A model generated the notes under the pieces. That model ran no database searches and was not told the DNA's origin. It saw nothing but the letters and a program-made list of their open reading frames with translations. A program made the translations under genes and the position numbers. This document shows, in pieces, positions 11,996-46,129 of a stretch of 64,000 bases of DNA. Each line of letters opens with the position of its first letter. Position 1 is the first letter of the stretch. Source of the DNA: an uncultured Gammaproteobacteria bacterium (lineage in GTDB: Bacteria; Patescibacteriota; Patescibacteriia; Magasanikbacterales; GWA2-37-8); assembly GCA_964355175.1 (NCBI GenBank), contig CAYHBZ010000002.1:332537-396536 (forward strand), read 5' to 3'.

Positions 11996-12000
11996 TTATT

Positions 12001-13290: not shown

Positions 13291-13295
13291 AATAT

Positions 13296-28487: not shown

Positions 28488-30551
28488 ATGGCCAAATATG
28501 TGAAGCCGACGGTCACTTTGACTAGAGTGCAGATTAAATGGAGGGTTGCTTGGATCGGAATTTTATTGGTAGTTTGTGGCCTGATAGTGTCTCCCCAATA
28601 CGCCAATCGTGGTGTTGATTGGGTCAATAGACAGACCAATCTTGGTGTACCTCGTTTACCTGAACAAGGCTTTAATTTAGGCTTGGATTTACAAGGCGGC
28701 GCTCATTTGGTGTACCAAACTGATACTACTCAGGTACCAGATGCCGACAAAGCTGATTCAGTAGAAGGTGTGCGTGATGTTATCGAACGTCGCGTGCGCG
28801 GAGGCCTGGGCGTATCCGAACCATTGGTGCAAACTACCAAAGTGGGAAATGATTATCGTATCATCGTAGAGCTTCCTGGTGTGACGGATGTAAATACCGC
28901 CATCAAAATGATTGGTGAAACTCCAGTACTCGAATTCAAAGAACAGAATGATCAACCTCCACGTGAATTGACCGCAGAAGAACAAAAACAATTGGATCAA
29001 TTCAACGCTAAAGCGACTGCCAAAGCCAACGCCGCTCTCAAAGAAGTAAAAAGTGGCGCGGATTTCGCTACCGTAGTAGCTAAATATACCGAAGACACCG
29101 CCAGCAAAAATAATGGTGGCGATCTTGGTTTTATTGATAACAAAATTTATCCAGAAATTTATAACTGGGCCAAAATTCACAAAGATGGGGAATACAGTAC
29201 CACTTTGGTAAAAAGTTTCGATGGTCTAAATATCCTCAAAAGAATTTCCGAGCGTCAGGGTGAAAAAGAAGTTTCTGCCGCCCATATCTTGATCTGTTAC
29301 AAAGGCGCCACTGCTTGCGATAATCCTCAGTATCTCACCAAAGGAGACGCTTTGAATAAAATTAAAGAAATTAAAGCGCAAGCCAACACTACAAATTTTT
29401 CTGATCTAGCCAAACAGTATTCCACTGAAGGGGCTGCCAAAACCACCGGTGGTGATCTTGGTACTTTTGGAAAAGGTGCAATGGTACCGGAATTTGAAAA
29501 AGCGGTTTTTGACGCTCCAATTGGTAGTATTTCCGAGCCGGTAGAAACTCAATTTGGTTATCATTTGATTTATAAAAAATCCGAACAGTTTGTGAAAGAA
29601 TATGATGTGGCCAGAATATTTGTGAAAACTCAGGAGAAAGCCGATATTGTGCCACCGACTGAAGAATGGAAAAGTAGTGGCTTGTCTGGTACTCAGCTCA
29701 AACGCGCTGAAGTGACTCAAGATTCTCGTACCGGACAAATCCAGGTAAGTTTGAATTTTGATGAGGCTGGTACAAAATTATTCTCTGAAATTACCGGTCG
29801 CAATGTAGGCAAGCCGGTGGCTATCTTCCTAGATGGTCAGCCAATTAGTATCCCAGTAGTAAATGAACCAATCTTGACCGGCAGTGCCGTAATTTCCGGT
29901 GGGTTTACTTTGCTAGAAGCCAAACAACTTTCTCAACGTCTAAATTCCGGTGCTTTACCAGTGCCGGTAGAATTAATCAGCCAGCAAAAAGTAGATGCTA
30001 CTTTGGGTAGCGATTCTTTGGCCAAAAGTTTCTATGCCGGTTTGATCGGGTTGCTCGGTGTGATGATCTTCATGGTTATCTATTATCGTTTACCAGGTGT
30101 GCTTTCCGTATTCTCCTTGGTGATTTATGCTTTGCTGAGTTTGGCCACCTTCAAATTAATTGGTGTAACTTTGACTCTGTCTGGTATCGCCGGTTTTATT
30201 TTGTCTATTGGTATGGCCGTGGATACGAATGTGCTCGTCTTTGAGCGTCTCAAAGAAGAATTACGCGCCGGCAAAAATCTCCACACCGCTTCGGAAGAAT
30301 CTTTCCGACGCTCTTGGCCATCTATTCGTGATGGTCATATCGCCACTCTGGTAAGCTGTGTATTCTTGGTCTGGTTTGGTACCGGCTTCGTACAGGGCTT
30401 TGCCGTGACTTTGGCTATCGGTGTGTTATTCAGTTTATTCACTGCTATCGTCGCTACTCGTGCCATGTCACGGTTGGTATTCAAATGGTTTGACGAAAAA
30501 GGCAATGTGCTTTTCTTGGGTTACACCAAGGGCAATGAAAATAATAAATAA
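28488..30551 (+). CDS. secD: protein translocase subunit SecD with two parvulin-type PPIase domains inserted in the periplasmic P1 region
   Basis: SecD N-terminus (LGLDLQGGAHLVYQ) and C-terminal membrane domain (..MAVDTNVLVFERLKEE..) flank two PpiC/parvulin signatures (..NNGGDLGFI.. and ..TTGGDLGTFGKGAMVPEFEKAVF..EPVETQFGYHLIYK). Confidence 0.85.
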   Translation: MAKYVKPTVTLTRVQIKWRVAWIGILLVVCGLIVSPQYANRGVDWVNRQTNLGVPRLPEQGFNLGLDLQGGAHLVYQTDTTQVPDADKADSVEGVRDVIERRVRGGLGVSEPLVQTTKVGNDYRIIVELPGVTDVNTAIKMIGETPVLEFKEQNDQPPRELTAEEQKQLDQFNAKATAKANAALKEVKSGADFATVVAKYTEDTASKNNGGDLGFIDNKIYPEIYNWAKIHKDGEYSTTLVKSFDGLNILKRISERQGEKEVSAAHILICYKGATACDNPQYLTKGDALNKIKEIKAQANTTNFSDLAKQYSTEGAAKTTGGDLGTFGKGAMVPEFEKAVFDAPIGSISEPVETQFGYHLIYKKSEQFVKEYDVARIFVKTQEKADIVPPTEEWKSSGLSGTQLKRAEVTQDSRTGQIQVSLNFDEAGTKLFSEITGRNVGKPVAIFLDGQPISIPVVNEPILTGSAVISGGFTLLEAKQLSQRLNSGALPVPVELISQQKVDATLGSDSLAKSFYAGLIGLLGVMIFMVIYYRLPGVLSVFSLVIYALLSLATFKLIGVTLTLSGIAGFILSIGMAVDTNVLVFERLKEELRAGKNLHTASEESFRRSWPSIRDGHIATLVSCVFLVWFGTGFVQGFAVTLAIGVLFSLFTAIVATRAMSRLVFKWFDEKGNVLFLGYTKGNENNK

Positions 30552-31630: not shown

Positions 31631-31820
31631 AGTGTTTAAAAAAACTATGTCTGGTCATGGTAGTGGGGCAAGCAGTCGTCATCTCGTGGCTTTTTTGGCC
31701 ACGGCGGTGGCTGGCCTTGCCTTTATATCCGGCTATGCTTCCGGCCTGCACGGCTGGTGGTGGACCGCCTTTGGATTGGCGGTAGTATATGGCGGAGTAT
31801 ATAAAATTATAGACGCCTAG
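31626..31820 (+). CDS. small hydrophobic protein (64 aa), tentative
   Basis: Two predicted TM helices. Sits immediately upstream of the TraD-N-domain paralog. Could be spurious. Confidence 0.3.
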   Translation: MTVFKKTMSGHGSGASSRHLVAFLATAVAGLAFISGYASGLHGWWWTAFGLAVVYGGVYKIIDA

Positions 31821-31824
31821 AGCT

Positions 31825-33249
31825 ATGAATGATTTTTCTTTTTTCTCCGTTTTTGGTTTTACCATTAATTGGGATTTTTGGAATTGGATAGTGGTTCAGC
31901 CACCCAGCGATACTGTCTGGTATATTTTTGTTATTATTGGTTGGGCCGCGTTAGCACTCGTATTTTTCTATATGGGTGCTCATTTTTGGGTGAATTATCG
32001 CAGAGAAAAATATACGGCCAAATGGCAATGGATGGTATTGGCTGTGGATGTGCCACCGCTATATATTCAAACCCCAAAAGCGGTAGAGCAAATTTTTGCC
32101 CATCTCAGCGGCGCAAAAGTGGGTATCAGTATCAGGCAAAAATACTGGGAAGGAAAGAAACAAAAATATTTTAGTTTTGAAATAGTTTCGGTGGAAGGCT
32201 ATATCCAATTTCTCATTCGCACCGAAGCGGAATTTCGTGATTTGGTAGAAGCGGCCGTGTATGCGCAATATCCGGAAGCGGAAATTACCGAGATCGAGGA
32301 CTATGTGGATATGGTGCCAAATTCTTTTCCAAATTCCACCCATCATATGTTGGCGGTGGAATTCAAATTGGCCGATGCCGACGCTTATCCTATTCGTACC
32401 TATCCCAGCTTTGAATATAAAATTAGCAAAGACGATGTTTTCAGTGATCCGATGGCCGCGATTTTGGAAAACTTTTCTCGTATTGGTCATGGCGAAAATT
32501 TATGGTTTCAAATTATTCTCGAGCCTACGGGCAGTGCTTGGAAAACCAAAGGGATTGCTTTGCTAAAAAGTATTATTGCCGGTGATCACGGTCATCACGG
32601 TAATCCAGTCTTGAGTTTTATTGGCGATTTACCGATGAAGGTGGCCAAAGAATTATTTACCATAATGAATAACACTGAATTTAGCGGCCATGAAGAGGAG
32701 CACGCGCCAGTGGCCGGGAAAATTAGCGATCTGACGCCCGGCGTCAAATCTACTCTCGAAGCGATAGAAGATAAAATTGCCAAGATTGGTTTCAAAACAA
32801 AAATGCGCGCGGTGTATATGGCTCGCAACGAAGTGTTCAATCCCAGCCGCTGTATTGATGGCTTTGTTGGTGCGATGAACCAGTTTCATATTCAGAGTCG
32901 CAACGCGATAGTGCCAAGTTCGATAAGTCATGGACATTTTGTTTTTTTCAAACGCTGGCAACAAGAAATGTTGGATAATAAATTTATAAAAAATTATGTC
33001 AAAAGAAAAATCAAATCTGGCGCCAGTCCATACATATTAAACATTGAAGAGTTAGCCACGGTGTGGCATTTCCCATTACCATTTGTGAAGACCCCGCTTG
33101 TACAAAAATCCGGAGCAAAGCGTGGCGAACCGCCTATCAATCTTCCTGTGGATATGATCGAAAGCCCGCTAAAAGTGAAGACCAAAGGCCAAGCGCTGCC
33201 TCCGCCACCATTGCCCGAGCCCGAAGTGGAAGAATTGCCTTATGGATAA
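31825..33249 (+). CDS. membrane-anchored protein homologous to the N-terminal ~450-aa domain of the TraD/VirD4-like ATPase at 42993..45554 (no ATPase domain)
   Basis: Shared blocks include EIVSVEGYIQFLIRTEAEFRDLVEAAVYAQYPEAEITEIEDY vs SFEIVVKDAKISFYVAIPDKWKDFVEQQIHAQYPHAEISVETDY, and LATVWHFPLPFVKTP vs MASLWHMPVPNTETP. Single N-terminal TM helix and a Pro-rich C-terminus. Confidence 0.6.
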   Translation: MNDFSFFSVFGFTINWDFWNWIVVQPPSDTVWYIFVIIGWAALALVFFYMGAHFWVNYRREKYTAKWQWMVLAVDVPPLYIQTPKAVEQIFAHLSGAKVGISIRQKYWEGKKQKYFSFEIVSVEGYIQFLIRTEAEFRDLVEAAVYAQYPEAEITEIEDYVDMVPNSFPNSTHHMLAVEFKLADADAYPIRTYPSFEYKISKDDVFSDPMAAILENFSRIGHGENLWFQIILEPTGSAWKTKGIALLKSIIAGDHGHHGNPVLSFIGDLPMKVAKELFTIMNNTEFSGHEEEHAPVAGKISDLTPGVKSTLEAIEDKIAKIGFKTKMRAVYMARNEVFNPSRCIDGFVGAMNQFHIQSRNAIVPSSISHGHFVFFKRWQQEMLDNKFIKNYVKRKIKSGASPYILNIEELATVWHFPLPFVKTPLVQKSGAKRGEPPINLPVDMIESPLKVKTKGQALPPPPLPEPEVEELPYG

Positions 33250-33340: not shown

Positions 33341-33501
33341 ATTCAGTTAGTTCTTTTATAACTATAATGACCAAGTCGTACCAAAAGAGGTAATGGGTAT
33401 CATATATTTCTAAAAAATAGGAATATATGATACCCATTTGCCTCCGGAACTTTTTCCTGAGGCGTTCGTTGGCTGGGTGCCAACATCCTTCAGGAGACAA
33501 G

Positions 33502-33909
33502 ATGAATCCCTCGGTTACTTATTGTGTGATTCTCGTCCGTGATGTGGTGGATGAAGAAGGGCGGAAGGAAGAGTACGAATCGCCGTTTGTTGTGACCAAG
33601 GAGTCACAGTGGTCGTTCGGGTTCTTGCCCGAAACGGACCAGGAGATCCGCTTCGGCGAATTCGGTGACAACGAGAAGGAGACCATCGCCAATGTAACCA
33701 TGACCAGGATCTATCCCGACAGTGGGCGGATGGTTATCTTTTGCAAGGTCAAGTACATGTGGGACATGCAGAGGTTGCGCACGCAGGGTTGGACGCTCGA
33801 AGGCTCTGTCCGTCTCGGTGCACCGGAGGTGGAAGTCCTGTACCAATGGCACCTCAATTGGGCGGATAATGGCTATAAGGACAAGGATCTCCAAGAAGCG
33901 GAGTTCTAG
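33502..33909 (+). CDS. orphan soluble protein encoded in high-GC islet 3 (alternative start 33427)
   Basis: ~57% GC. Starts MNPSVTYCVIL.. with the Shine-Dalgarno CAGGAGAC just upstream. No motif I recognise. Confidence 0.45.
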   Translation: MNPSVTYCVILVRDVVDEEGRKEEYESPFVVTKESQWSFGFLPETDQEIRFGEFGDNEKETIANVTMTRIYPDSGRMVIFCKVKYMWDMQRLRTQGWTLEGSVRLGAPEVEVLYQWHLNWADNGYKDKDLQEAEF

Positions 33910-34085: not shown

Positions 34086-34616
34086 TTATTTTGTTGTCTG
34101 TAAACTTGTTTCCGGAACCAATTTTTTTATCATTTCATATCCGCCAATCAGTACACCGCTGTAGAATAAGTTGCTTATAATTTCATTGCGCCAGAAGGGG
34201 AGAGCCATATAATAGCTTTGCAACAATCCGGAAAAGTCATGAGTGTACATGGTGCCAAATAGCCAGACTGCGCCATTGGTAAGTAAGAAGAAAATTAGAC
34301 TACCGGAAAGTACACCGATGATAACATTGGAAACGCCAATTTTATTTTTTAGATATTGGCCGATTAGCACCATCAAAACAAATCCAACATATACTGAAGC
34401 CATAATTGATGGGCGATAGAAACCAATAAAGATATCGCTGATAAACATTGCCGCCAAAGGTAAAAGCAAAGATTCTTTTTTGCCCAGATATAAACCGGCA
34501 AATAGAGCGACCGCGCCCATAGCGGTAAAATTACCAGGGTGAGGCATGAAGCGGGTGGCAATGGCCAGGATTATTAGCAGGTAGATAGGTAATTTTTTCA
34601 TAAGTTCAGTAATCAT
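34086..34616 (-). CDS. 6-TM membrane protein resembling ECF-transporter S components (substrate-capture subunit), tentative
   Basis: 176 aa, six hydrophobic helices, size and topology typical of vitamin-specific ECF S components. Last gene of a minus-strand cluster with the DUF4430 protein and the giant surface protein. Confidence 0.4.
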   Translation of the reverse strand: MITELMKKLPIYLLIILAIATRFMPHPGNFTAMGAVALFAGLYLGKKESLLLPLAAMFISDIFIGFYRPSIMASVYVGFVLMVLIGQYLKNKIGVSNVIIGVLSGSLIFFLLTNGAVWLFGTMYTHDFSGLLQSYYMALPFWRNEIISNLFYSGVLIGGYEMIKKLVPETSLQTTK

Positions 34617-34628
34617 TTAGTGGCTAAA

Positions 34629-37600
34629 TTATAGCACATTCTTTATCAATCTCAAACCTAAGTACAGTCCAAGCGCGGCGGCACTGCCTCCGGTCACAGC
34701 GAGCACTTTTTTGGCGGTGCGGCGGGTAGGAGTGTCGAGCGGCAAGTCGTCGATTGGGCTGGTTTTGTCTTCTATTTTTTCTGCGGAGCTTAATTGCTGC
34801 TGTTGTTTAAGAGAAGTGATATTGTCAGATGAGTTGTTGGAATCATTGTTGGTGGTAGGGGAAACAGCTACCACTTTGACAGTAGGTTGTGCTACCAAAA
34901 TCACTGGTTTGGTTTCAGGTAATTCTGTTGCTAGCACGACAGTGGTCGTAGCGGGGGTAGTGGTTGCTATGGTCGTGGTAGCTACTGTAGTGGTGGCAAT
35001 GGTAGTGGTTGCTATAGTAGTGGTAGGAGTACTCGTAGGAATTACAATAATTTCAGAAGATCCACCCGAGCCAGTAGTGACAGATTTTGGATCCAAAGTT
35101 ATTGGCCAAGATTTTCCAAGCATAGCTGGTACGGCAGATTTCGTGCCAAACCAATCAATGCCACCATCCCAGGATTGAGTGAAATGATCATTATTTAAAG
35201 TTGTCAAAATATACCAAGGGTTTTTTCCGACAGAATTAAACCATTCATTTTGGCCTTCTCCCAAAGCATTAATACCCATCACAGCCCAGCTGGTCGTCAG
35301 GCTGTCTGACTCAGCACAGCCATTAGTGTAATCATAGCAACCCCAGCCACCATCGGTGTGCTGTTGGTTTTTTAGATATTGTTTTGCTTTTGTATAAATA
35401 TCGGCATTCACAGTCGCGCCATTATTTTCGGCATACTTCAAAGCATTCACAGCCGCACCCGTAAGATCTGGTGATTCAAATGGACCGGGATAAGCGAAAC
35501 CACCGTCGGCTTCTTGATTGGCTTTGATTGCACTGAGCGTGGTCTGCACTACTGGTGAATTTTGGTCTTCGCCGATAGCAATGGCCGCGATCAAACCAAA
35601 TATGTCATCGTTAATTCCAGTTTGTCCAAAGATGTTATTTTGTACGCATGCGTCTAGCTTTGTTTTTAGGGCAATAATTTTGCTGTCATTTTTGGCGACA
35701 CTACTGGCGAGCAAACCTAAAATGTGACGAGGGTAAGCGGCGCAACTATTTAATTCTGTGTCTAAAAGACTACTATCGTAGTTGTATAGATAATTATAAA
35801 GAGACGAACTGGAATTTTTTACATCCGCGGCGTAAATATTTTTGGCGGCAAAAGTCAGGGCCAACCAATCCGAAGTGCCGGCGTCGATAATTTTACCATC
35901 AGCGCTTTGGTTGGTTTTGATAAAGTTAATTAATTTTGTGACAGCGCTGTCTATAGCGGTGGTGGAAATTAGTTGGTTGCTAGGAGAGCTGGATCCACCG
36001 CCGGAAGTGGAAGTAGTGCTGGTAGTATTTTGGTTGCTAGGCAAGTCGGTCACTACCAGTGTAATAGGCGCGCTCCATTTTAAGTAATTTTCATCGGTAA
36101 TTTTGGCAGAGTATGTGCCGGTGCTACTAAAATTATAGTAAGCCACACCTTGGTCATTGCTCAGTGTGGTGGAAACTGTAATGTCTGTGTCCCACCAGCC
36201 GGTAGGAGTAGGATTGGGAATAGTGATGGCCACTAAATCATTTGGATCCAAAACCCATTCGTTGCTTAGGTCGCTGTAATTATATTTCCAAGTATAAAAT
36301 GGCGTGGAAGTATTGATATAGACATTATTACTTGGGGTCGTAATTTTCCAAGAGTCTCCAAAATAAATATAAATATTTTCACCACCGTTTAAGGTCATAC
36401 TGCCCATACCAACTTGAGGGTAGACATTATTAACAACATAATTCCAATTACCACAAGTGGATGTGGCGATGCTTTCAATGTATAAACAGTTCAGATAATA
36501 GCCATAGTCGGAGAGTTGTAGATCGGATATAGAAAAGGTGGTAGTATTTTGAGCCGCATTTATTAAAGCTGTAAGAACGGTGGTCGAGGTAGTGGAAGTA
36601 GTTAATCCTTGGTTGTATGTAATCAAGGTATTGGTGGATAAAGTTACAGGACCAGAAAAAACAAAACCATTTTGATAACGGATATTTAGGTTAACAGTTA
36701 AATCTGTGGAGCTGGCAGTGCTAGCAACAGAACCTGTGTCCTCTGGTGTAGGCGCAACATACGGATCAAAAGTAAAGTTATTTATAATAAATTCATTGGT
36801 AGTATTGTTGGTTGGAATCAATCCTCTGTATTGCCAAAAATTTATATCTACCAAGGCATTGCTTGGGTCAAAATTATTGGTACTACCATCGGTGCTGGTT
36901 GTGTATGTCCAGCTACTGATGGTATTTCCATTTTGAGTGGTACTAAAATTAATTTTATCTGGTTGCCAATCGATAATATCTTCAAAAATACCATCGGAGA
37001 AAGTGGCCACTGAAATTTGTTTGTTGCCATCTTTACTGCCAGGCTGTACGACATAGAATAGATTATCACTGCCAGTTTCATCGGCCCAGTAAGAATGTTC
37101 GATGTCCAGTTCGTGACTATCATCCTGGTATAAAAAAGGCGCGGCTACCAGATTATGATCGAGTAAATCAGGGCGAGTGTTTATTTCAAAAGTATATTTT
37201 CCGTAACCTAAAGAAGCAGGTAGATAAACTTCGGAAGAGTACCATTTCTGATCATCTGCGTGTTGGGAAACTCTTAAGTGTAGGGCGGATCCGTCCAGGA
37301 AGACATCTTTATCCGTATTGCCCCAATTATTTTTAATTCCTGTATCTGTAATGCCGGGTAGTCCAGTTCCGCCTCGCACTTTCCAGGTGCGACCGGCAAA
37401 ATCTATTGTGTCCAAGATTGTGGGTCCAAAAGCTTCAAGAATTAAGGGAGTGAAGTTTTCGGTGGTAGTGGTGGTGCTGTTTGTTTCGGTTGATTGAGTA
37501 GTCTCGGCCTCTATAACGGTAGTAGTGGAAGTGGAGGATGTTTCTTCAGTGGTGGTAGTGTTTTCTTCTGCCCGACTGTTACCGGCCACAAATACTATTC

Positions 37601-37655
37601 CCAAAATAATTATCGCCCCCCAGATCAGTTGTTTTTTAAAATTGAGGTACTTCAT
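34629..37655 (-). CDS. giant cell-surface protein: signal peptide, GH16/concanavalin-like domain, Thr-rich linkers, prenyltransferase/terpene-cyclase-like alpha/alpha-toroid repeats, C-terminal TM anchor
   Basis: HELDIEH matches the GH16 catalytic ExDxE motif. ..QEADGGFAYPGPF..TDGGWGCYDY.. resemble squalene-cyclase/prenyltransferase repeats. Long T/S-rich low-complexity runs. C-terminal VLAVTGGSAAALGLYLGLRLI anchor. Confidence 0.65.
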   Translation of the reverse strand: MKYLNFKKQLIWGAIIILGIVFVAGNSRAEENTTTTEETSSTSTTTVIEAETTQSTETNSTTTTTENFTPLILEAFGPTILDTIDFAGRTWKVRGGTGLPGITDTGIKNNWGNTDKDVFLDGSALHLRVSQHADDQKWYSSEVYLPASLGYGKYTFEINTRPDLLDHNLVAAPFLYQDDSHELDIEHSYWADETGSDNLFYVVQPGSKDGNKQISVATFSDGIFEDIIDWQPDKINFSTTQNGNTISSWTYTTSTDGSTNNFDPSNALVDINFWQYRGLIPTNNTTNEFIINNFTFDPYVAPTPEDTGSVASTASSTDLTVNLNIRYQNGFVFSGPVTLSTNTLITYNQGLTTSTTSTTVLTALINAAQNTTTFSISDLQLSDYGYYLNCLYIESIATSTCGNWNYVVNNVYPQVGMGSMTLNGGENIYIYFGDSWKITTPSNNVYINTSTPFYTWKYNYSDLSNEWVLDPNDLVAITIPNPTPTGWWDTDITVSTTLSNDQGVAYYNFSSTGTYSAKITDENYLKWSAPITLVVTDLPSNQNTTSTTSTSGGGSSSPSNQLISTTAIDSAVTKLINFIKTNQSADGKIIDAGTSDWLALTFAAKNIYAADVKNSSSSLYNYLYNYDSSLLDTELNSCAAYPRHILGLLASSVAKNDSKIIALKTKLDACVQNNIFGQTGINDDIFGLIAAIAIGEDQNSPVVQTTLSAIKANQEADGGFAYPGPFESPDLTGAAVNALKYAENNGATVNADIYTKAKQYLKNQQHTDGGWGCYDYTNGCAESDSLTTSWAVMGINALGEGQNEWFNSVGKNPWYILTTLNNDHFTQSWDGGIDWFGTKSAVPAMLGKSWPITLDPKSVTTGSGGSSEIIVIPTSTPTTTIATTTIATTTVATTTIATTTPATTTVVLATELPETKPVILVAQPTVKVVAVSPTTNNDSNNSSDNITSLKQQQQLSSAEKIEDKTSPIDDLPLDTPTRRTAKKVLAVTGGSAAALGLYLGLRLIKNVL

Positions 37656-38265
37656 ATTTCCAAGTTAGTGAATCGTTATTTTTTAAAATATAATTTGAGA
37701 TGCCCGTTTGCGCCGGTTTGCTATTGAGGTAGTAGATCCAGTATTTGCCGGCATTCTTATCGGTTTTGACTCCATCGATTTCATCTACGAAATATCCTAG
37801 GCTAGAAAATGGTTTGAAAATGGCAGTGATTTTTTTCTCGTCTACCAGCTGTGCCATCGCGTCATAGGCCGTAGATTTTTCGGCCATCAGCAATGAATAG
37901 TTTTGGCCGTTAATTATTATCGTAACACTCAGAGTATTTTTTTCTGGAATTGGAGTGGTGGTTGGGGTGGCTTCGGAAGGTGTGTCAGTCGCCACGTTAG
38001 AATTTTTTTGTTCAGGCTGTCTGGTTTCTTTTTTCTGTTCCGGTACGGTCAGAGTGGTGTTGGTGGCGACATCAGACCAAGGCAGACTTTGCGCCACAGG
38101 AGCGGGCGAGACTGGTTTGGGTGTCGCGGCTTTATTTGGCAGTAGCAGATAGGCGCCGCTAGCTAGGGCCATGAATATTAGGACCATCCAGAGCCGCGTT
38201 AGGTGTTTGTTATGCATATTGTTATTTAAAAAAGAAAAAACCCTTTCCCGGGAGAAAAGATTCAA
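37636..38265 (-). CDS. secreted/anchored DUF4430-domain protein (transcobalamin beta-domain-like)
   Basis: C-terminal ..SAYDAMAQLVDEKK..GYFVDEIDG..KYWIYYLNS..WKYEV.. matches the DUF4430 pattern. N-terminal TM helix and a Pro/Thr-rich linker. Overlaps the start of the giant surface-protein gene by 20 nt. Confidence 0.55.
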   Translation of the reverse strand: MNLFSRERVFSFLNNNMHNKHLTRLWMVLIFMALASGAYLLLPNKAATPKPVSPAPVAQSLPWSDVATNTTLTVPEQKKETRQPEQKNSNVATDTPSEATPTTTPIPEKNTLSVTIIINGQNYSLLMAEKSTAYDAMAQLVDEKKITAIFKPFSSLGYFVDEIDGVKTDKNAGKYWIYYLNSKPAQTGISNYILKNNDSLTWKYEVPQF

Positions 38266-40536: not shown

Positions 40537-41370
40537 TCAAGATTCTATTGCCGGTCCAGTTTTGAATTTTTGGATTGTTTTGCTTTCTACTACTTTGATT
40601 TGGTTCCATTTCCAGCCGCGGGCCAAAAATGCTTGGGCGCTGGCAATCGGATGTTTGGTATCATGGAAAATATAGTATACGGCCGGACTGGTTCTATCCT
40701 TCATTAATACTTTTGAATCGGTAAATAAGACGCGAGCGGGTCCGTCGGCCTTGTGATTTTTGAAATTAAAATCGTGAAGGGTGTTCATTATCAAATTATA
40801 GCCGTAGCGGTGGTAGGCTCCGGTCACGGGATCGCCACTATCATGTACTAAGAATTCATTGGTATTATCATCAAAACCAACCAGCACCATCACATGAAAA
40901 TAAGAGCCGCCAACTCGCCAATGGTGGTAGGGGTTTTTGATATCTTTGGCATAGTGAAAAGAAATTACCGGTTTTCCTCGACGTAATTGGTCTTTTATTT
41001 CTTCAATCGTTGGATTGTTTTTTATAGTGGCGCTTACCGACAGGTAATCATTGAGCAGTTTGGCGGTGCGCACGGTATCACTATCGGCGTTACTGCCAAA
41101 AATTTTATCTTCAATCTTAAAAATCGGCGTCATGTATTTGACGGCCACAGCTTTGGTCATAGATTCATTGCCGAAATAGTAACTTTCCGCCATCACCATG
41201 CTAGCTTCTTCACAAGCATTGTTCCAAGGTTTGACCCAGCTACCAAGCGGTATCTCTGAGGTATAAGGTACTTTGAGTTTTACGATTTCTTTTTCTTGGG
41301 CGTAGGCGGAGAAGGTCGGGAAAAGGAATGATGTAGAAATTAGGAAAGAGAGAAGAATTTGTTTTTTCAT
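40537..41370 (-). CDS. secreted C39-like papain-fold peptidase domain protein
   Basis: Signal peptide, a Cys near ..WNNACEEAS.. and His in ..SYFHVMVLVGFDDN.., consistent with a peptidase_C39_2-like catalytic dyad. Confidence 0.45.
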   Translation of the reverse strand: MKKQILLSFLISTSFLFPTFSAYAQEKEIVKLKVPYTSEIPLGSWVKPWNNACEEASMVMAESYYFGNESMTKAVAVKYMTPIFKIEDKIFGSNADSDTVRTAKLLNDYLSVSATIKNNPTIEEIKDQLRRGKPVISFHYAKDIKNPYHHWRVGGSYFHVMVLVGFDDNTNEFLVHDSGDPVTGAYHRYGYNLIMNTLHDFNFKNHKADGPARVLFTDSKVLMKDRTSPAVYYIFHDTKHPIASAQAFLARGWKWNQIKVVESKTIQKFKTGPAIES

Positions 41371-41373
41371 ATT

Positions 41374-42981
41374 TTATATTACTTCGCCGCCAAATTGGTT
41401 AGCCAAATTATTTAGTTCACTGTCGTTATTTGTATCTACTGCCGGTGCGGCAGTGAATTCAGAAATTACTCTTATTCTTTCGCCCAGTGATTTTTCCAGT
41501 TCATCTTCAATCAATTTTTTGCTTTTCATTTCATCTATTTTGTCTTTGTGTATCTGGTATTGAAAAGCGATATGTAAGCCGTCTCCTTCTACCGAATTTA
41601 GCGTGCACATTTTTAAAATAAAAGTTAAAGACGGTATGACTTTGGAAATGGCCGTTACAATTTCAGGCCATTTGGCTTTCACATCCTCCACGGTTGATTT
41701 TGGTGGATTTTTGTGGGTAAAGCTGCCAATAACTGTCTTTATGCTCTCTGTTATATTATACGGTTTTGCTTCAGGTTTAGTTTCAATTTTGGCTTCAAGA
41801 GCGCTAGGTTGAGCTGTAGGAGATGTGGTGTGCGCTGGAGTAGTAGTGTGAGTTGCGGCGGTAGCGACCGGAGTGGTGGATGTGTAAGTAGGCAGAGCTG
41901 AACCAAATTCCACTGCGAATAATTCCAGTGGTAATTGTGGTACTGGCGCTTGTTTGATCTCGCGTTTTCTCAGCAACGCGGATTCGATCATCGTGATAAT
42001 TTTTTGTGCCGGAATTTTTTCTGACAGTTCTTTTATTTGTTTGAGAGTTTCTTTGTCGGTGTTCAAGATATTTTTGATATCATAGCCGGTCTGCGCTATC
42101 AGAGTGCCGCGTAATATATCTATCAGGCTCAGGGTGAATTGTTCCAGATTGGCGCCGCTATTGGTGGCGGAATTAATTTGTTCGATTGCTTTGGCTGTAT
42201 CTGAATTTATGATACTGGACAAAAATTCCAATACCGCTCCAAAATCGGCGGATGGCAAAATCGCTTCGACATCTTTTTCATTTATTTCTTTCAAGTTGGT
42301 CGAAAAAATTTGACCAAGCAAACTTTCGGCATCACGCAGGCCGCCTTCGCTTTTGATAATAATTTTGTTAAGCACCTCTTTACTGACTTTTATTTTTTCT
42401 TCTTTACAAATCATCTCCAGTTTTTTTAGCATTTCCTCGGCTGTAATTTTTTTGAATCCAAAACGCTGACAGCGGGAGATGATCGTGGCTGGCAATTTTT
42501 GCAATTCGGTGGTAGCCAAAATAAATACTACATGAGCGGGTGGCTCTTCGATAGTTTTCAGCAGGGCATTGAAAGCACTACCGGACAACATGTGGACTTC
42601 GTCGATGATAAAAATTTTGTAAGTGGATCTGGTTGGTTTGAATTGCGCGTTGTCGATAATATTTTCACGGACATTGTCGACGCCGGTGTGAGAGGCGGCA
42701 TCAATCTCAATTACATCAATATTATTTCCAGCCGTAATTTCGGTACACGAAGAACATTCATTACATGGTTCAAATGAATCTTTTTTTCTATCGGGGCAGT
42801 TGAGAGCTTTACTCACGAGGCGAGCGGTAGTGGTTTTGCCTACGCCGCGCGGGCCGGTAAATAGATAAGCGTGCGCGATTTTGCCACTACTTATCTCGTT
42901 GGTAAGAGTTTTTACAATATATTCCTGATCGTGCATGTCAGCAAAAGTTTGCGGACGGTATTTTCTATAGATAGTTGTCAT
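41374..42981 (-). CDS. dnaX: DNA polymerase III subunits gamma/tau
   Basis: AAA+ P-loop GPRGVGKTT, zinc module CPDRKKDSFEPCNECSSC, SRC motif. Confidence 0.9.
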   Translation of the reverse strand: MTTIYRKYRPQTFADMHDQEYIVKTLTNEISSGKIAHAYLFTGPRGVGKTTTARLVSKALNCPDRKKDSFEPCNECSSCTEITAGNNIDVIEIDAASHTGVDNVRENIIDNAQFKPTRSTYKIFIIDEVHMLSGSAFNALLKTIEEPPAHVVFILATTELQKLPATIISRCQRFGFKKITAEEMLKKLEMICKEEKIKVSKEVLNKIIIKSEGGLRDAESLLGQIFSTNLKEINEKDVEAILPSADFGAVLEFLSSIINSDTAKAIEQINSATNSGANLEQFTLSLIDILRGTLIAQTGYDIKNILNTDKETLKQIKELSEKIPAQKIITMIESALLRKREIKQAPVPQLPLELFAVEFGSALPTYTSTTPVATAATHTTTPAHTTSPTAQPSALEAKIETKPEAKPYNITESIKTVIGSFTHKNPPKSTVEDVKAKWPEIVTAISKVIPSLTFILKMCTLNSVEGDGLHIAFQYQIHKDKIDEMKSKKLIEDELEKSLGERIRVISEFTAAPAVDTNNDSELNNLANQFGGEVI

Positions 42982-42992
42982 AGGGCTATATT

Positions 42993-45554
42993 CTACAGGG
43001 AAACTTCACTCATATCAATACCAGTAGTTGGCTTGGAAACACCCAGCTGGGCGCGTTCGGCAATTTCGGCTTCCACGATTTCACGCGCGCGTCCATATTT
43101 GAGACGAGAGAGCTCTTTTATCGCTTCGGCCAGTTCTTTATTGCCTGGTTTTGGCGGATAGGTCATCATGTTGAATGGTTTGGCGGCGGTGTTGTCGATC
43201 AATAATTTTGTATAGGCAGTATATTGCTCCACATTTACCAAATCATAGGCGGAGAAAACCGGAGCAAATTCTTTTTGTAAAATATCGGCGTCTTCCACAC
43301 CGATGCGGAAAGAAACAATGGTACCGGCGTTACCAAGTACGGCGTCGCGCACGGCGGATTTGCCTTTGTTATCTTCCAATTGTTTCATGTATTGATGGGC
43401 GATGATTAGTTCAAGACGATATTTACGCGCCTCGGAAAGAATGGTGGCGATAGAATCAGTAATAAAGTTTTGGAACTCATCAATATATAGATAGAAGTCA
43501 TGGCGCTGATCCTCGGGCATATTGGCGCGCTCTAGAGCAGCCATCTGTAATTTGGACACGATAATCATACCCAAAAGATTGGAGTTGATTTCGCCGGTCA
43601 AACCTTTGGCCAGATTTACAATCAAAATTTTCTTTTGATCCATCACTTCACGGAAATTAAAACCGGAATGAGATTGGCCAATAATATTACGCACCATCGC
43701 GTTTTCAGTAAAACGGCCTACTTTGGAAATCAAATAACCCAACATTTCTGATTTGTGAAAATCTGAAGTCTTGGCCATTTCTTTTTCCCAGAAAGCCAGT
43801 ACCACCGGATCGTTTAATTTCTTTTTCCATTTGGCTACATAAGTATCGTCGGTAAACATGCGTGGTACTTCGGCGATAGTGCCTGGAGTCTCCATATCAG
43901 CCATCAAAGTCAACATCACATTGCGCATTTGGTGTTCAAACATCGGGCCGATCATCGATGGGTCCGTCACCATTTTATAGAAGATTGCGATCATTTCCTG
44001 AGTAGCAAAATCTTTTTGTCCCTCGGTTTTTACTTCAAGCATATTCAGCCCTATTGGACGATCGGTATCGGATGGATTGAAATAAATAACATCATCCGCG
44101 CGTTCTTTTGGTACGTGTTGTAACACATATTCGGCAAAGTCACCGTGCGGATCGATAATACAAACACCTTCGCCGTTTTGCACATCCTGGATAGCAAGAT
44201 TTTGGATGAACACGGATTTACCGGAACCAGATTTACCAATGGTATAAAGATGGCGACGACGATCATCACGTTTCATTTTTACTATAATTTCCTGACCGCG
44301 ATAAACCGAACGGCCCAAAATAATACCATCGGTAGGCATGTTGGTTGGTGGGGGAGCTTTGCGTGCGCCGAGCCAGTTGATATGTGGAGTTTCGGTATTT
44401 GGTACTGGCATATGCCAGAGCGAGGCCATCTCTTCGGTATTTACTACCATATAACGATTCGCATCCGGGGAGCGGTAGATGGATTCGCGAATAATTTTAT
44501 TCTGATTTTTTGGTACGGCCGCGCCAAAGGAATTGCCGTAGCGATAGATATTATATTGCGAAAAAGAATTCACGATATTTTCCAAATTCATTTTGGCCTT
44601 TTGTTGGCTGTCGGAGGAGCTCACCAAGCGTACCGTTAATTCCAGCCCGCCGTGAGAAATTTTTTCTTCCATGGTTTTCACCATTTCTTCTTCCATTTGG
44701 GTGAGATGATATTCTTTGGCACCACCATGAGCCGCGTCTTTATTTTTTGGAAAAAGTATTTTACCCCATTTGCTCAGAGAGCGCACAAAGGCACTGCGAC
44801 GAGCGACATATTCAAATTTTTGTCCCTCGCGAATGTCGCGGATCATGTGCACGCCCTGTTTGCGCCATTTGGAGGTGGCCGGACGAACGATATATTGTAA
44901 CAACGCGCCTTCGTTTTCAGATATTTTGCTTAGTGGATTGAGGATCGACAAAAGAGGATCGGCATCCATTTTTTTGAAAGTTTTTAGCGGGAATGCCGAG
45001 CGGCTTTTGAGAAATAAAGAAGCGGCCATGATATGACTCTGTGGTTTGAAAAGATTATAATCGGTTTCCACGGAAATTTCAGCGTGCGGATATTGAGCGT
45101 GAATTTGTTGCTCCACAAAATCTTTCCATTTGTCTGGGATAGCGACATAAAAAGAAATTTTGGCGTCTTTGACTACGATTTCAAAAGACAGGTGATCATT
45201 GCGTCCAAAAAACCATTTGGAAAATCCTTTGTCGGCTTTGAGGCCGGCGATAGCCGAAAACATGGTATCGGCAATGGCAATATATTCGCGGGTCTGAGTA
45301 ATATTTTGTTCGTTGCCGGATTGATTTTGGGTACTGTCACTCTTTTTTTCTTTTGGCACTTTGATCAATATGATGGTGCGATGAAAGGCTTTGCCTTCGT
45401 GATTGGTGGCCTGAAAAATCGCTCGCGCTAAAAATATCAAACCAATAAGCACGGCCCAACCGGCTACAAACAAAAAGCCGGCCAAGAATACAGGCTGTTG
45501 AATTCCATCCGCGAACCAGTTGGATAGGTATGTAAATAGGGAGCCGGAGTCCAT
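42993..45554 (-). CDS. TraD/TraG/VirD4-family type IV secretion coupling-protein-like ATPase with a large N-terminal membrane-anchored domain
   Basis: Walker A (YTIGKSGSGKS), Walker B (LYIDEFQNF), and a C-terminal TraG-D_C-like region (..IIAHQYMKQLED..GNAGTIVSFRIG..). The N-terminal ~450 aa is paralogous to ORF 31825..33249. Confidence 0.7.
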   Translation of the reverse strand: MDSGSLFTYLSNWFADGIQQPVFLAGFLFVAGWAVLIGLIFLARAIFQATNHEGKAFHRTIILIKVPKEKKSDSTQNQSGNEQNITQTREYIAIADTMFSAIAGLKADKGFSKWFFGRNDHLSFEIVVKDAKISFYVAIPDKWKDFVEQQIHAQYPHAEISVETDYNLFKPQSHIMAASLFLKSRSAFPLKTFKKMDADPLLSILNPLSKISENEGALLQYIVRPATSKWRKQGVHMIRDIREGQKFEYVARRSAFVRSLSKWGKILFPKNKDAAHGGAKEYHLTQMEEEMVKTMEEKISHGGLELTVRLVSSSDSQQKAKMNLENIVNSFSQYNIYRYGNSFGAAVPKNQNKIIRESIYRSPDANRYMVVNTEEMASLWHMPVPNTETPHINWLGARKAPPPTNMPTDGIILGRSVYRGQEIIVKMKRDDRRRHLYTIGKSGSGKSVFIQNLAIQDVQNGEGVCIIDPHGDFAEYVLQHVPKERADDVIYFNPSDTDRPIGLNMLEVKTEGQKDFATQEMIAIFYKMVTDPSMIGPMFEHQMRNVMLTLMADMETPGTIAEVPRMFTDDTYVAKWKKKLNDPVVLAFWEKEMAKTSDFHKSEMLGYLISKVGRFTENAMVRNIIGQSHSGFNFREVMDQKKILIVNLAKGLTGEINSNLLGMIIVSKLQMAALERANMPEDQRHDFYLYIDEFQNFITDSIATILSEARKYRLELIIAHQYMKQLEDNKGKSAVRDAVLGNAGTIVSFRIGVEDADILQKEFAPVFSAYDLVNVEQYTAYTKLLIDNTAAKPFNMMTYPPKPGNKELAEAIKELSRLKYGRAREIVEAEIAERAQLGVSKPTTGIDMSEVSL

Positions 45555-45562
45555 CTTCTTAA

Positions 45563-46129
45563 TTATAATAATTTATCGGATTGTTTTTCTTTTTCCATTT
45601 TGTGTAATTGTACCATGCTGTCGGTTTTTATTTTTGCTTCTTGTTCCAAGAAAAATTTATTGAGACCAGGCAGGACTTTGAGCCAATCGATTATCAAAAG
45701 TAAAATCTTTTTTACTTTTATATGCGTGTCTTGCAAAAGCTCTTTAATTTTTATGGCGGTTTCTTCGCCCTTGATCTTGAATTCTTGCTTGGCAATGGGG
45801 GATAGCTTTATGTATTGATCGGCCAATCCGCTTTCTAATATTTTTTCAATTTTTATTACAGTCGGATCCTGGACTTGGGGTAGGGGTTTGTGGTGTTTTT
45901 TTACGGCCAAAGGAGCGGGACGACGCTGGGCGCCTTCTTGAGTTCTTTTTTTGTCTTCTACCGGAGTATTTTCGGTTTTTTCGTTTTCGTGATTTTGCTC
46001 CTGTTCGGACTGTTCTTGTACATGCAAATCACGCGAGCGAGCAAACTCCTCGCTTAGGTTGTCTAAATTTTTATCATTCATAGTTGGGAATATTATACCA
46101 TTATTTTTATTAAAACAAAAGCAAAGCAT
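45563..46129 (-). CDS. charged hypothetical protein, co-directional and immediately upstream of the TraD-like gene
   Basis: 188-aa ORF (more likely starting at MNDKNL, ~46081). An 8-nt gap to the downstream gene suggests co-transcription. Confidence 0.4.
   Translation of the reverse strand: MLCFCFNKNNGIIFPTMNDKNLDNLSEEFARSRDLHVQEQSEQEQNHENEKTENTPVEDKKRTQEGAQRRPAPLAVKKHHKPLPQVQDPTVIKIEKILESGLADQYIKLSPIAKQEFKIKGEETAIKIKELLQDTHIKVKKILLLIIDWLKVLPGLNKFFLEQEAKIKTDSMVQLHKMEKEKQSDKLL

What the first reader, a model, noticed from the sequence alone, without database searches (positions are those of the whole stretch)
42993..45554. TraD/VirD4-like coupling ATPase with a novel large N-terminal domain, in an operon with dnaX
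An 853-aa protein has Walker A/B motifs and a TraG-D_C-like C-terminus typical of type IV secretion coupling proteins. Its first ~450 aa is a membrane-anchored domain with no motif I recognise. It sits in a minus-strand run: a hypothetical 188-aa gene, this gene, dnaX, then a C39-like peptidase. I saw no other T4SS components (VirB4, VirB6, relaxase) in the window, though pilM, a pilin and pilD lie 6 kb away. This may be a DNA-translocation ATPase working with type IV pili (DNA uptake) rather than conjugation.
Basis: partly seen in the sequence, partly recalled or inferred. Interest (0 to 1): 0.6.

Follow-up and report, generated by a model that had tools for sequence, protein, structure and literature searches.

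The report
CPR core coupling-protein-like ATPase with DUF8128
This gene encodes a membrane-anchored motor protein related to the "coupling" ATPases of bacterial conjugation; ultra-small Patescibacteria keep it as a near-universal chromosomal gene away from any conjugation machinery, and its N-terminal domain is a catalogued but uncharacterised family (DUF8128), not a new one.

Summary
The 853-aa ORF at 42993-45554(-) is real, and the description of it is accurate. It has a single N-terminal TM helix, then a ~360-aa cytoplasmic domain, then a VirD4/TrwB-type P-loop motor with an inserted all-alpha domain.

The N-domain is not novel. It is Pfam DUF8128 (PF26449), present in thousands of proteins. 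A stand-alone 474-aa paralog lies in this same window (31825-33249+). Its predicted fold most resembles the N-terminal domain of VirB4/TrwK, but the match is remote and TM-scores are low.

The same two-domain protein occurs in monoderm and archaeal plasmids, in one case next to a VirB4-like ATPase and a relaxation protein, and in Bacillus phages (phrog_5156).

In Patescibacteria the gene looks vertically inherited. CPR sequences are 29-96 % identical to one another and cluster apart from three plasmid/phage homologs. The context is housekeeping, and the 188-aa-gene/ATPase/dnaX order is conserved in the closer relatives only. No VirB4-like ATPase lies within 8 kb in 80 related loci.

Published work already reports VirD4-like genes in 96 % of Patescibacteria genomes, mostly far from virB4.

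The proposed link to type IV pili and DNA uptake has no support: pilM is not near the gene in any related locus. The substrate and the membrane partner remain unknown.

The parts
42993..45554 (-). 853-aa DUF8128 + T4CP-type ATPase gene (the finding)
   Evidence: ORF. Pfam hits. Precomputed PF26449+PF10412+PF01935+PF02534+PF12696 on all close homologs. AlphaFold model with pLDDT 84.8 and pTM 0.74.
45417..45494 (-). Single N-terminal transmembrane helix (aa ~21-46); predicted N-out/C-in topology
   Evidence: Kyte-Doolittle peak of 2.55 and the charge distribution of the flanks. The model has one long helix over aa 21-56.
44319..45386 (-). DUF8128 (PF26449) domain, aa ~57-412, alpha/beta. Contains the conserved positions E125, Q220, R361, H381 and P383, and the junction motif EEMASLWHMPVP...TP...APPP.N.P.
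   Evidence: Name confirmed. 1,957 representative clusters. Invariant columns. For the VirB4-NTD-like fold, the full-length model of this protein aligns to TrwK/VirB4 over ~915-930 columns, and the DUF8128-only model, built from the stand-alone paralog, has TrwK/VirB4 as its top 12 PDB hits at E 3.6e-4 to 5e-3.
43155..44318 (-). T4CP (VirD4/TrwB)-type nucleotide-binding domain, aa ~413-800
   Evidence: Pfam TrwB_AAD_bind, T4SS-DNA_transf and TraG-D_C all above cut-off. TrwB is the only PDB hit by sequence. Foldseek against TrwB gives a target TM-score of 0.63-0.67.
44214..44237 (-). Walker A motif GKSGSGKS (aa 440-447)
   Evidence: G440, G445 and K446 are invariant in 42 diverse homologs.
43680..44021 (-). 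All-alpha domain inserted between Walker A and Walker B (aa ~512-625), the hallmark of T4CPs
   Evidence: Seven consecutive helices in the model. The region is covered by the TrwB_AAD_bind match.
43476..43496 (-). Walker B motif FYLYIDE (aa 687-693)
   Evidence: D692, E693 and Q695 are invariant.
43050..43139 (-). Conserved C-terminal helical hairpin (aa 806-835; consensus LSRxKYGRxRxxVExEI)
   Evidence: Model helices 806-820 and 824-835. Conserved in the consensus.
45563..46129 (-). 188-aa upstream protein, 8-nt gap. Disordered charged N-half and a conserved ~80-aa C-terminal helical region (...WLK.LPG.NKFFLEQEAKIKTD). Candidate partner.
   Evidence: No Pfam or NCBIfam match. A homolog lies immediately upstream in about 28 of the 34 closer loci. 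Conservation profile. Distant CPR lineages have unrelated small ORFs at the same position.
41374..42981 (-). dnaX (DNA polymerase III gamma/tau), 11 nt downstream
   Evidence: Found downstream in about 24 of the 34 closer loci, often with one or two genes in between.
40537..41370 (-). Peptidase_C39_2-like protein, the last gene of the tightly packed minus-strand run
   Evidence: 2e-12. Found in only a few related loci.
31825..33249 (+). Stand-alone DUF8128 paralog (474 aa): TM helix, DUF8128 and the conserved tail motif, with no ATPase
   Evidence: tblastn 25 % identity over 461 columns, E 1.6e-28. BLASTP 4e-35. Precomputed PF26449:DUF8128. A family of 2,019 hits, co-resident with the fusion on contigs of the same lengths. 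Model pLDDT 76.7.
31647..31820 (+). 57-aa two-TM mini-protein, ending 4 nt upstream of the stand-alone DUF8128 gene (RHLVAF...GWWWTAF...IDA)
   Evidence: Called as a gene in public assemblies. Conserved in a relative whose DUF8128 protein is 56 % identical.

Best explanation
The gene encodes a chromosomal, vertically inherited Patescibacteria member of a broad 'DUF8128 + type IV coupling protein (T4CP)' family.

Anatomy (shown): one N-terminal TM helix, a ~360-aa cytoplasmic DUF8128 domain, and a VirD4/TrwB-type P-loop motor with an inserted all-alpha domain and intact catalytic residues.

Mechanism (inferred): like TrwB/VirD4, it assembles into a membrane-anchored ring that uses NTP hydrolysis to recruit and push a macromolecular substrate (DNA or protein) to a membrane channel. 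In place of the usual two-helix membrane domain, it docks through DUF8128. The predicted fold of DUF8128 is closest to the N-terminal domain of VirB4, which is the part of VirB4 that binds VirB3 and the inner-membrane platform.

Likely partners (inferred): the small proteins encoded immediately upstream, the stand-alone DUF8128 paralog, and the CPR chromosomal monoderm-type T4SS where that is present.

Origin (inferred): domesticated from monoderm conjugation machinery and no longer linked to a relaxase or to virB4. The substrate is unknown.
For: Motor identity:
- Pfam T4CP families above cut-off.
- TrwB and DotL are the best PDB sequence matches, HerA is weaker, and FtsK and VirB4 are absent.
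- Foldseek against TrwB gives a target TM-score of about 0.65, and against Cagbeta 0.55.
- An all-alpha insertion spans aa 512-625.
- Walker A/B residues are invariant in 42 diverse homologs.

Topology: a single TM helix with an acidic N-flank and a basic C-flank.

DUF8128:
- Name confirmed, with 1,957 representative clusters.
- It is always followed by the motor at about residue 400 in the full-length proteins checked.
- The full-length model aligns to TrwK/VirB4 over ~915-930 columns at E 6e-15.
- The DUF8128-only model has TrwK/VirB4 as its top 12 PDB hits (E 3.6e-4 to 5e-3, probability 0.97-1.0), and the next hit is at E 0.07.

Conjugative relatives:
- The Embleya plasmid carries PrgI, a 643-aa ATPase, the homolog, a replication-relaxation protein and NlpC/P60 in a row.
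- The B. subtilis plasmid homolog sits among TcpC/D/E-family genes.
- Phage G has gp155 ('VirB-like') followed by gp156.
- The CPR-derived N-domain HMM hits these proteins at 5e-42 and 4e-23.
- phrog_5156 matches at 2e-90.

Vertical core gene:
- Found in more than 18 named CPR lineages, with over 600 stretches in species-representative genomes.
- 72-96 % identity within Magasanikbacteria.
- CPR sequences cluster apart from the three plasmid/phage homologs; mean CPR-CPR identity is 0.39 against 0.24 for CPR versus external.
- The context is housekeeping and the composition is unremarkable.
- The literature reports T4CP homologs in 2,918 of 3,035 Patescibacteria genomes, only 148 of them near virB4 (PMC12102498).
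Against: - No partner has been shown.
- No VirB4-like ATPase lies within 8 kb in any of 80 CPR loci.
- The gene is more prevalent (96 %) than VirB4 (80 %) in published counts, so it cannot depend on the T4SS everywhere.
- The T4CP homolog of S. epibionticum is reported as non-essential, while the T4SS genes are essential (PMC12102498).
- The small upstream proteins of different CPR classes are not detectably homologous to one another.
- Hexamer formation, nucleotide hydrolysis and the substrate are inferred from the family, not shown.
Confidence: 0.6

Rival explanations
1. DNA-uptake motor: the ATPase works with type IV pili and the competence machinery to pull environmental or host DNA into the cell. 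Patescibacteria cannot make nucleotides, so this would be a nucleotide supply route.
For: pilM, a pilin and pilD lie 5.6-8.5 kb away in the window. According to the literature, Saccharibacteria are naturally competent (PMC10633639, listing), and ABY1-class T4SS loci often contain comF, recG and radA (PMC12102498). The near-universal presence of the gene would fit a nutritional role.
Against: No pilM homolog lies within 8 kb of the gene in any of 80 related loci. No ComEC/ComF-type gene was found among the window ORFs scanned. Known T4CPs act on the export side. The T4SS-derived ComB uptake system is not known to use a T4CP (my own knowledge, not tested here).
Confidence: 0.12
2. Replication- or segregation-linked DNA translocase: an FtsK-like pump for chromosomal DNA, co-expressed with the clamp-loader gene dnaX.
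For: There is an 11-nt gap to dnaX. dnaX lies downstream in about 24 of the 34 closer loci. T4CPs and FtsK belong to one ATPase superfamily. The gene is near-universal and strongly conserved.
Against: The dnaX linkage is absent in the more distant CPR classes (L035-L080). cysS and CorA are also conserved neighbours in the closer loci (12 and 7 loci against 18 for dnaX), which points to frozen gene order and not a functional operon. One or two unrelated genes often sit between the ATPase and dnaX. Pfam FtsK_SpoIIIE scores 16 bits, below its 24-bit cut-off, and no FtsK matches in the PDB. The motor carries the T4CP-specific all-alpha domain.
Confidence: 0.1
3. Coupling protein of an integrated conjugative or mobilisable element (active or decayed) that happens to lie next to dnaX.
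For: Homologs with the same architecture sit in conjugation clusters on plasmids, one of them next to a relaxation protein.
Against: No relaxase, integrase, VirB4 or VirB6 was found in the window. GC content is 0.425, against 0.34-0.48 across the window. Gene order with housekeeping neighbours is conserved across many species. Identity is 72-96 % throughout Magasanikbacteria. CPR sequences cluster apart from the three plasmid/phage homologs.
Confidence: 0.03
4. ATPase component of an anti-phage defence system (HerA/MADS-like).
For: PADLOC mad8 at 2.9e-16, plus weak DndH and HerA matches, all on the motor domain.
Against: The matches cover only the generic P-loop region. The DUF8128 paralog and the upstream gene have no relevant PADLOC match. 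No nuclease, Sir2 or methyltransferase partner genes are nearby. Near-universal vertical conservation is atypical of defence genes.
Confidence: 0.03

Closest known systems
TrwB / VirD4 / TraD type IV coupling proteins (Pfam TrwB_AAD_bind, T4SS-DNA_transf, TraG-D_C)
   Same: A P-loop motor of the FtsK-HerA superfamily with an inserted all-alpha domain. These are the best sequence and structure matches for the C-terminal 440 aa. The protein is membrane-anchored at its N-terminus.
   Different: It has one TM helix plus a 360-aa DUF8128 domain in place of a two-helix membrane domain. It is not encoded near a relaxase or a T4SS. It scores far below every NCBIfam T4CP equivalog cut-off. It is chromosomal, vertically inherited and near-universal in a phylum.
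VirB4 / TrwK (R388 T4SS ATPase)
   Same: The overall build is the same: an N-terminal alpha/beta domain of about 400 aa followed by a superfamily ATPase of about 400 aa. The full-length model aligns over ~915-930 columns. DUF8128 alone retrieves only VirB4 chains as significant hits. In the stand-alone paralog, a small membrane protein is encoded directly upstream, as VirB3 is upstream of VirB4.
   Different: There is no sequence-level similarity: TIGR00929 scores 16.8 bits against a 643-bit cut-off, and Pfam CagE_TrbE_VirB does not hit. The motor carries the T4CP all-alpha domain, which as far as I know VirB4 lacks. TM-scores are low (0.3).
DUF8128-T4CP proteins of monoderm and archaeal plasmids and Bacillus phages (Embleya WP_331738717.1, B. 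subtilis WEZ26732.1, phage G gp156, phrog_5156)
   Same: The same two-domain architecture, homologous over aa ~95-835.
   Different: They are only 18-28 % identical. They are encoded on mobile elements next to VirB4-like ATPases, PrgI/Tcp proteins and a relaxation protein, whereas the CPR gene sits among housekeeping genes.
TrsD (pGO1), reported as the most abundant T4SS-related protein in Patescibacteria
   Same: The literature describes it as a stand-alone protein remotely homologous to the N-terminal part of VirB4 (PMC12102498). Conceptually that resembles the stand-alone DUF8128 paralog.
   Different: Not tested here, because no TrsD profile was available. TrsD homologs are mostly next to virB4, whereas the stand-alone DUF8128 gene here follows secDF.
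HerA / FtsK-SpoIIIE translocases
   Same: The same ATPase superfamily. Pfam DUF87 scores 29.7 bits on the Walker A region, and the Foldseek target TM-score for HerA is about 0.52.
   Different: The matches are weaker than for T4CPs. No HAS-barrel or FtsK gamma domain was detected. FtsK_SpoIIIE is below cut-off, and no FtsK appears in the PDB search.

Membership tests
Type IV coupling protein (VirD4/TrwB/TraD) | FtsK-HerA-superfamily P-loop NBD with intact Walker A and B motifs | tested here: met
   GKSGSGKS at aa 440-447 and YIDE at aa 690-693. These residues are invariant in 42 and in 76 homologs.
Type IV coupling protein (VirD4/TrwB/TraD) | All-alpha domain inserted in the NBD; match to T4CP profiles above curated thresholds | tested here: met
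   TrwB_AAD_bind 41.1 bits (cut-off 20.5), T4SS-DNA_transf 38.7 bits (cut-off 20.1), TraG-D_C 29.2 bits (cut-off 22). Helices span aa 512-625. TrwB target TM-score 0.65.
Type IV coupling protein (VirD4/TrwB/TraD) | N-terminal membrane domain of two TM helices with a short external loop | tested here: not met
   Only one hydrophobic segment (aa ~21-46), followed by the 360-aa DUF8128 domain.
Type IV coupling protein (VirD4/TrwB/TraD) | Encoded with, and functionally coupled to, a relaxase and/or a T4SS (VirB4 and others) | tested here: not met
   None in the 64-kb window. No VirB4-like ATPase within 8 kb in 80 CPR loci. The rest of the genome could not be searched. The literature says most CPR genomes carry a T4SS elsewhere.
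Type IV coupling protein (VirD4/TrwB/TraD) | Reaches an NCBIfam equivalog or subfamily cut-off (TraD, CD1115, TOL TraD and others) | tested here: not met
   The best match is SXT_TraD at 56 bits against a 366-bit cut-off. All others are also far below their cut-offs.
Type IV coupling protein (VirD4/TrwB/TraD) | Hexameric, substrate-stimulated NTPase that recruits T4SS substrates | not testable with these tools
   Requires biochemistry and genetics.
Pfam DUF8128 (PF26449) | Match to the PF26449 profile | tested here: met
   Precomputed PF26449.1 is on all 120 close homologs and on the diverse homologs. The paralog in the window is labelled PF26449:DUF8128, and a distant fusion homolog carries the same label. 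The model is missing from the local Pfam copy, so the window protein itself was linked through homology.
VirB4 (TrwK/TraC/CagE) | Match to VirB4 sequence profiles (TIGR00929, Pfam CagE_TrbE_VirB) | tested here: not met
   TIGR00929 scores 16.8 bits against a 643-bit cut-off. There is no CagE_TrbE_VirB hit. No VirB4 appears in the PDB sequence searches.
VirB4 (TrwK/TraC/CagE) | N-terminal alpha/beta domain fold followed by the ATPase domain | tested here: inconclusive
FtsK/SpoIIIE | Match to FtsK_SpoIIIE above cut-off; multi-TM N-domain; gamma (KOPS-binding) domain | tested here: not met
   16 bits against a 24-bit cut-off, on 35 residues only. No FtsK in the PDB profile search. Only a single TM helix.
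HerA | HAS-barrel N-domain plus HerA ATPase; partner nuclease NurA | tested here: not met
   The DUF87 hit covers only aa 433-509. HerA PDB matches are weaker than T4CP matches. NF040937 scores 17.8 bits against an 800-bit cut-off. No NurA-like neighbour is present.

The most novel reading that the evidence does not exclude
The DUF8128-T4CP protein, together with the stand-alone DUF8128 paralog and their small membrane partners, forms a T4SS-independent translocation machine that is universal in Patescibacteria. It would be a 'VirB4-like platform plus VirD4-like motor' in one polypeptide. This machine would move nucleic acid or protein across the single membrane, for example to acquire host DNA or nucleotides or to deliver effectors. 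That would explain why the gene is more widespread than VirB4 and so strongly conserved in these minimal genomes.
Probability: 0.15. Interest if true: 0.8.

Novelty: new variant of a known kind. Interest (0 to 1): 0.45.

Why it matters
Patescibacteria make up a large share of bacterial diversity, and they live on other cells with minimal genomes. A large ATPase retained in about 96 % of those genomes must do something important.

Published work has counted these 'orphan' VirD4-like genes and suggested they may have been exapted, but it has not described their architecture.

This analysis adds three observations:
- The orphan T4CP carries a DUF8128 domain with a VirB4-N-domain-like predicted fold.
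- DUF8128 also exists as a separate conserved membrane protein downstream of secDF.
- The same architecture occurs in genuine conjugation clusters and in Bacillus phages.

Together these give concrete handles, in the form of candidate partners, domain boundaries and conserved residues, for testing what the motor transports. For this particular window, though, the gene is an ordinary member of a large, already catalogued family.

Tried and rejected
- Local Pfam and NCBIfam on the N-domain gave nothing. The family PF26449 is newer than the local Pfam copy and was recovered only through precomputed labels.
- A literature search for PF26449/DUF8128 found no papers.
- Profile searches of DUF8128 against PDB sequences and of 67 stand-alone members against Pfam gave no meaningful hit.
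- I tested whether the small ORFs upstream of the gene in different CPR classes (hyp188, fam136, fam152) are one diverged family. Iterative HMM search and hhalign say no, with probabilities below 2 %.
- The recurrent ~213-aa neighbour family of related loci is absent from this window and has no Pfam match.
- The promoter and terminator scan of the operon region gave no more sites than shuffled sequence, so it was not used.
- R388 (BR000038) could not be fetched for a direct TrwK profile comparison.
- The canonical pLS20 T4CP (p48, 786 aa, two TM helices) appears to be a different protein from the 913-aa Bacillus plasmid homolog, so it provides no experimental anchor.
- The PADLOC matches (mad8, DndH, HerA) cover only the generic motor and were rejected as a defence assignment.
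Full report
**Observation**

The ORF 42993..45554 (-) exists exactly as described, with an ATG start and 853 aa. Homologs of 847-857 aa align over its whole length, so the start codon is right. It has a Walker A motif (GKSGSGKS, aa 440-447) and a Walker B motif (FYLYIDE, aa 687-693).

Three coupling-protein families pass their Pfam gathering thresholds on the C-terminal half:
- TrwB_AAD_bind, 41.1 bits (cut-off 20.5), aa 427-750.
- T4SS-DNA_transf, 38.7 bits (cut-off 20.1).
- TraG-D_C, 29.2 bits (cut-off 22).

There is one strongly hydrophobic segment (aa ~21-46), with an acidic N-flank and a basic C-flank. This predicts an N-out/C-in orientation, which places everything after the helix in the cytoplasm.

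The gene order on the minus strand is the 188-aa ORF, this gene, dnaX, then a Peptidase_C39_2 protein, with gaps of 8, 11 and 3 nt. pilM, a pilin and pilD lie 5.6-8.5 kb away on the other strand.

The rest of the window is housekeeping: secA, secD/F, mreB, holB-like, tpiA, a class II aminoacyl-tRNA synthetase, cysS, folD, ligA, PPDK, infC, CorA, Nramp and glycosyltransferases. No VirB4, VirB6, relaxase or integrase family turned up in any ORF I scanned. Base composition at the locus is unremarkable.

**Organism and conservation**

The closest homologs come from Candidatus Magasanikbacteria and other Patescibacteria, and they are 72-96 % identical over the full length. The 80 loci kept come from Magasanik-, Uhr-, Falkow-, Komeili-, Buchanan-, Doudna-, Berkel-, Staskawicz-, Levy-, Curtiss-, Woese-, Davies-, Moran-, Peregrini-, Peri- and Saccharibacteria, and identity is still 39-60 %.

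The literature reports VirD4-like T4CP homologs in 2,918 of 3,035 Patescibacteria genomes (5,713 copies). Only 148 of these are near virB4, and VirB4 itself is present in 2,417 genomes. The authors note that the S. epibionticum copy was not essential, and that exaptation 'cannot be ruled out' (PMC12102498).

In a rough midpoint-rooted neighbour-joining tree, 58 CPR and representative sequences form a group that excludes the three plasmid/phage homologs I held. Mean CPR-CPR identity is 0.39, against 0.24 for CPR versus external sequences.

**The N-terminal domain is not novel**

Every homolog carries the precomputed Pfam family PF26449, which is missing from the local Pfam copy. A look-up confirmed that its name is DUF8128.

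An exhaustive search with aa 1-415 found 1,957 representative clusters at E <= 1e-3. In all eight full-length members I checked, the domain is followed at about residue 400 by the same T4CP-type motor. At least two of the ~400-aa hits (P0138, P0162) trace to contig-end fragments.

Positions E125, Q220, R361, H381 and P383 of the domain are invariant across both alignments, one of 42 diverse and one of 76 further homologs.

**A stand-alone paralog in the same window**

ORF 31825-33249 (+), 474 aa, is a full-length copy of the module: TM helix, DUF8128 and the junction motif EE[LM]A..WH.P.P...TP...PP.N.P. It has no ATPase. It aligns at 25 % identity with BLASTP E 4e-35, and it is labelled PF26449:DUF8128.

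It defines its own conserved family of 2,019 hits, 465-490 aa long. Members sit on contigs with the same lengths as those carrying the fusion protein, so the two are probably co-resident.

Its context is conserved in a relative whose DUF8128 protein is 56 % identical: secA, DUF1653, secD (with an inserted PPIase), secF, a 57-59-aa two-TM mini-protein, then DUF8128. The mini-protein is conserved at the protein level (RHLVAF...GWWWTAF...IDA).

**Structure**

The full-length AlphaFold model is confident (pLDDT 84.8, pTM 0.74). The motor shows seven helices (aa 512-625) inserted between Walker A and Walker B. This is the all-alpha domain typical of T4CPs.

Foldseek of the full model against the PDB gave:
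- Full-length TrwK/VirB4 chains from R388 as the best E-values (6e-15, ~915-930 aligned columns, TM about 0.3).
- TrwB covering only the motor (E 5e-14, target TM-score 0.63-0.67).
- Cagbeta at 0.55 and HerA at about 0.52.

A model of the stand-alone DUF8128 protein (pLDDT 76.7) contains no ATPase. It nevertheless retrieved TrwK/VirB4 chains as its top 12 hits (E 3.6e-4 to 5e-3, probability 0.97-1.0, 430-460 columns). The next hit was at E 0.07.

By sequence profile, the motor is closest to T4CPs: TrwB 7e-8 and DotL 4e-7. HerA is weaker (6e-4), and FtsK and VirB4 do not appear.

**Relatives outside the CPR**

tblastn found homologs covering aa ~95-130 to ~820 in 551 plasmid records: Bacillus 282, Streptomyces 68, Clostridium, Staphylococcus, haloarchaea and Sulfolobus. 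It also found them in 65 phage records.

- On an Embleya plasmid the homolog sits in the order PrgI-family protein, 643-aa ATP-binding protein, homolog, replication-relaxation protein, NlpC/P60.
- On a B. subtilis 65-kb plasmid it lies in a transfer region with TcpC/D/E-family genes.
- In Bacillus phage G, gp156 follows gp155, which is annotated 'VirB-like'.

An HMM built only from CPR N-domains hits the Bacillus protein at 5e-42 and the Embleya protein at 4e-23. PHROG family 5156, of unknown function, matches aa 117-835 at 2e-90.

The architecture is therefore old and is shared with genuine conjugation systems of monoderms. This fits the published conclusion that the Patescibacteria T4SS derives from the monoderm MPF-FATA class.

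**Synteny**

In the closer loci (L001-L034), a homolog of the 188-aa protein is immediately upstream in about 28 of 34, often overlapping or within a few bases. dnaX lies downstream in about 24 of 34, frequently with one or two small genes in between. cysS and CorA are also recurrent neighbours.

In the more distant classes neither the 188-aa family nor dnaX is present. Nearly every locus still has some small same-strand ORF (about 120-190 aa) directly upstream. These ORFs fall into at least three families with no detectable similarity to one another.

No pilM homolog is near the gene in any locus. No second superfamily ATPase lies within 8 kb. Three loci carry two tandem copies.

I therefore treat the dnaX linkage as class-level conserved gene order. 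It is compatible with co-transcription but is weak evidence for a shared function.

**Interpretation**

Shown:
- The domain anatomy and the T4CP-type motor with intact catalytic residues.
- Membership of DUF8128.
- The stand-alone paralog.
- The conjugative and phage relatives.
- The phylum-wide, housekeeping-embedded distribution.

Inferred:
- A membrane-anchored ring translocase or substrate receptor that docks through DUF8128 to small membrane partners and, where present, to the chromosomal T4SS.
- In the stand-alone model, the conserved tail motif is invariant yet predicted disordered (pLDDT below 50 at aa 420-447). In the fusion, the equivalent segment is ordered next to the motor (pLDDT 85-94). 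This suggests the stand-alone protein could bind a motor domain in trans. That is a hypothesis only.

The substrate (DNA or protein) and the direction of transport are unknown.

An FtsK-like role linked to dnaX is possible but weakly supported. The mobile-element and defence readings are disfavoured.

**Novelty and score**

The gene is an ordinary member of a large, catalogued family. NCBI names its members 'type IV secretion system DNA-binding domain-containing protein', and Pfam lists the N-domain as DUF8128. The phylum-wide presence of the family away from virB4 is already published.

I found no published description of three things: the DUF8128/VirB4-N-domain-like architecture, the conserved stand-alone paralog with its mini-protein downstream of secDF, and the link to plasmid and phage homologs. 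I rate the finding a new variant of a known kind, with interest 0.45.

Noticed in passing
window 31825-33249 (+) and 31647-31820 (+): A stand-alone DUF8128 protein (474 aa) is preceded by a conserved 57-aa two-TM mini-protein (GWWWTAF motif). The arrangement recalls the VirB3-VirB4 gene order. The pair follows secA-DUF1653-secD-secF both here and in a relative whose DUF8128 protein is 56 % identical.
   Followed up: partly
window 28488-30551 (+): SecD carries two PPIC-type peptidyl-prolyl isomerase (parvulin/rotamase) matches between its first periplasmic segment and the P1 head domain. The same fusion is present in related genomes (L081, L087).
   Followed up: no
L036 (Berkelbacteria) 11836-13510; L040 10481-12108; about 22 loci in all: A ~170-215-aa protein family with a conserved C-terminal motif (VPANYASKSKLV.GD.LKL...WAAVEN) and no Pfam match recurs next to the ATPase in several CPR classes. 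In L036 and L040 it is followed by a 346-aa Sigma70_r4 + HARE-HTH protein. It is absent from this window.
   Followed up: partly
L036, L040, L046: Two full-length DUF8128-T4CP paralogs lie in tandem or a few genes apart. One copy is often longer (975-1073 aa). Such redundancy could explain the reported non-essentiality in S. epibionticum.
   Followed up: no
L086 (Bacillus phage G) 5243-9385; phrog_5156: Jumbo and SPO1-like Bacillus phages encode a pair consisting of a VirB-like ATPase (gp155) and a DUF8128-T4CP homolog (gp156). Their function is unknown.
   Followed up: no
window 4667-7888 (+): A 1073-aa ORF with no Pfam match at all. ORFs 23455-24204 (-), 33427-33909 (+) and 59787-60560 (-) also have no match.
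   Followed up: no
window 34086-38265 (-): A cluster of a DUF6580 membrane protein, a 1008-aa Thr/Ser-rich surface protein with a squalene-cyclase-like repeat and DUF4430, and a second DUF4430 protein. It may be a surface binding or uptake module.
   Followed up: no
window 47274-49430 (-): A 718-aa secreted Cys-rich protein with a Big_1 domain and an HEFGH zinc-metalloprotease motif (weak Peptidase_M64 hit), located between CorA and cysS.
   Followed up: no
L002, L004, L013, L015 and others: Many TPA metagenome bins that carry this CPR gene and CPR-type synteny are titled 'uncultured Gammaproteobacteria' or 'Bdellovibrionales', and one is titled 'Bathyarchaeia'. These are probably mislabelled records.
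   Followed up: no
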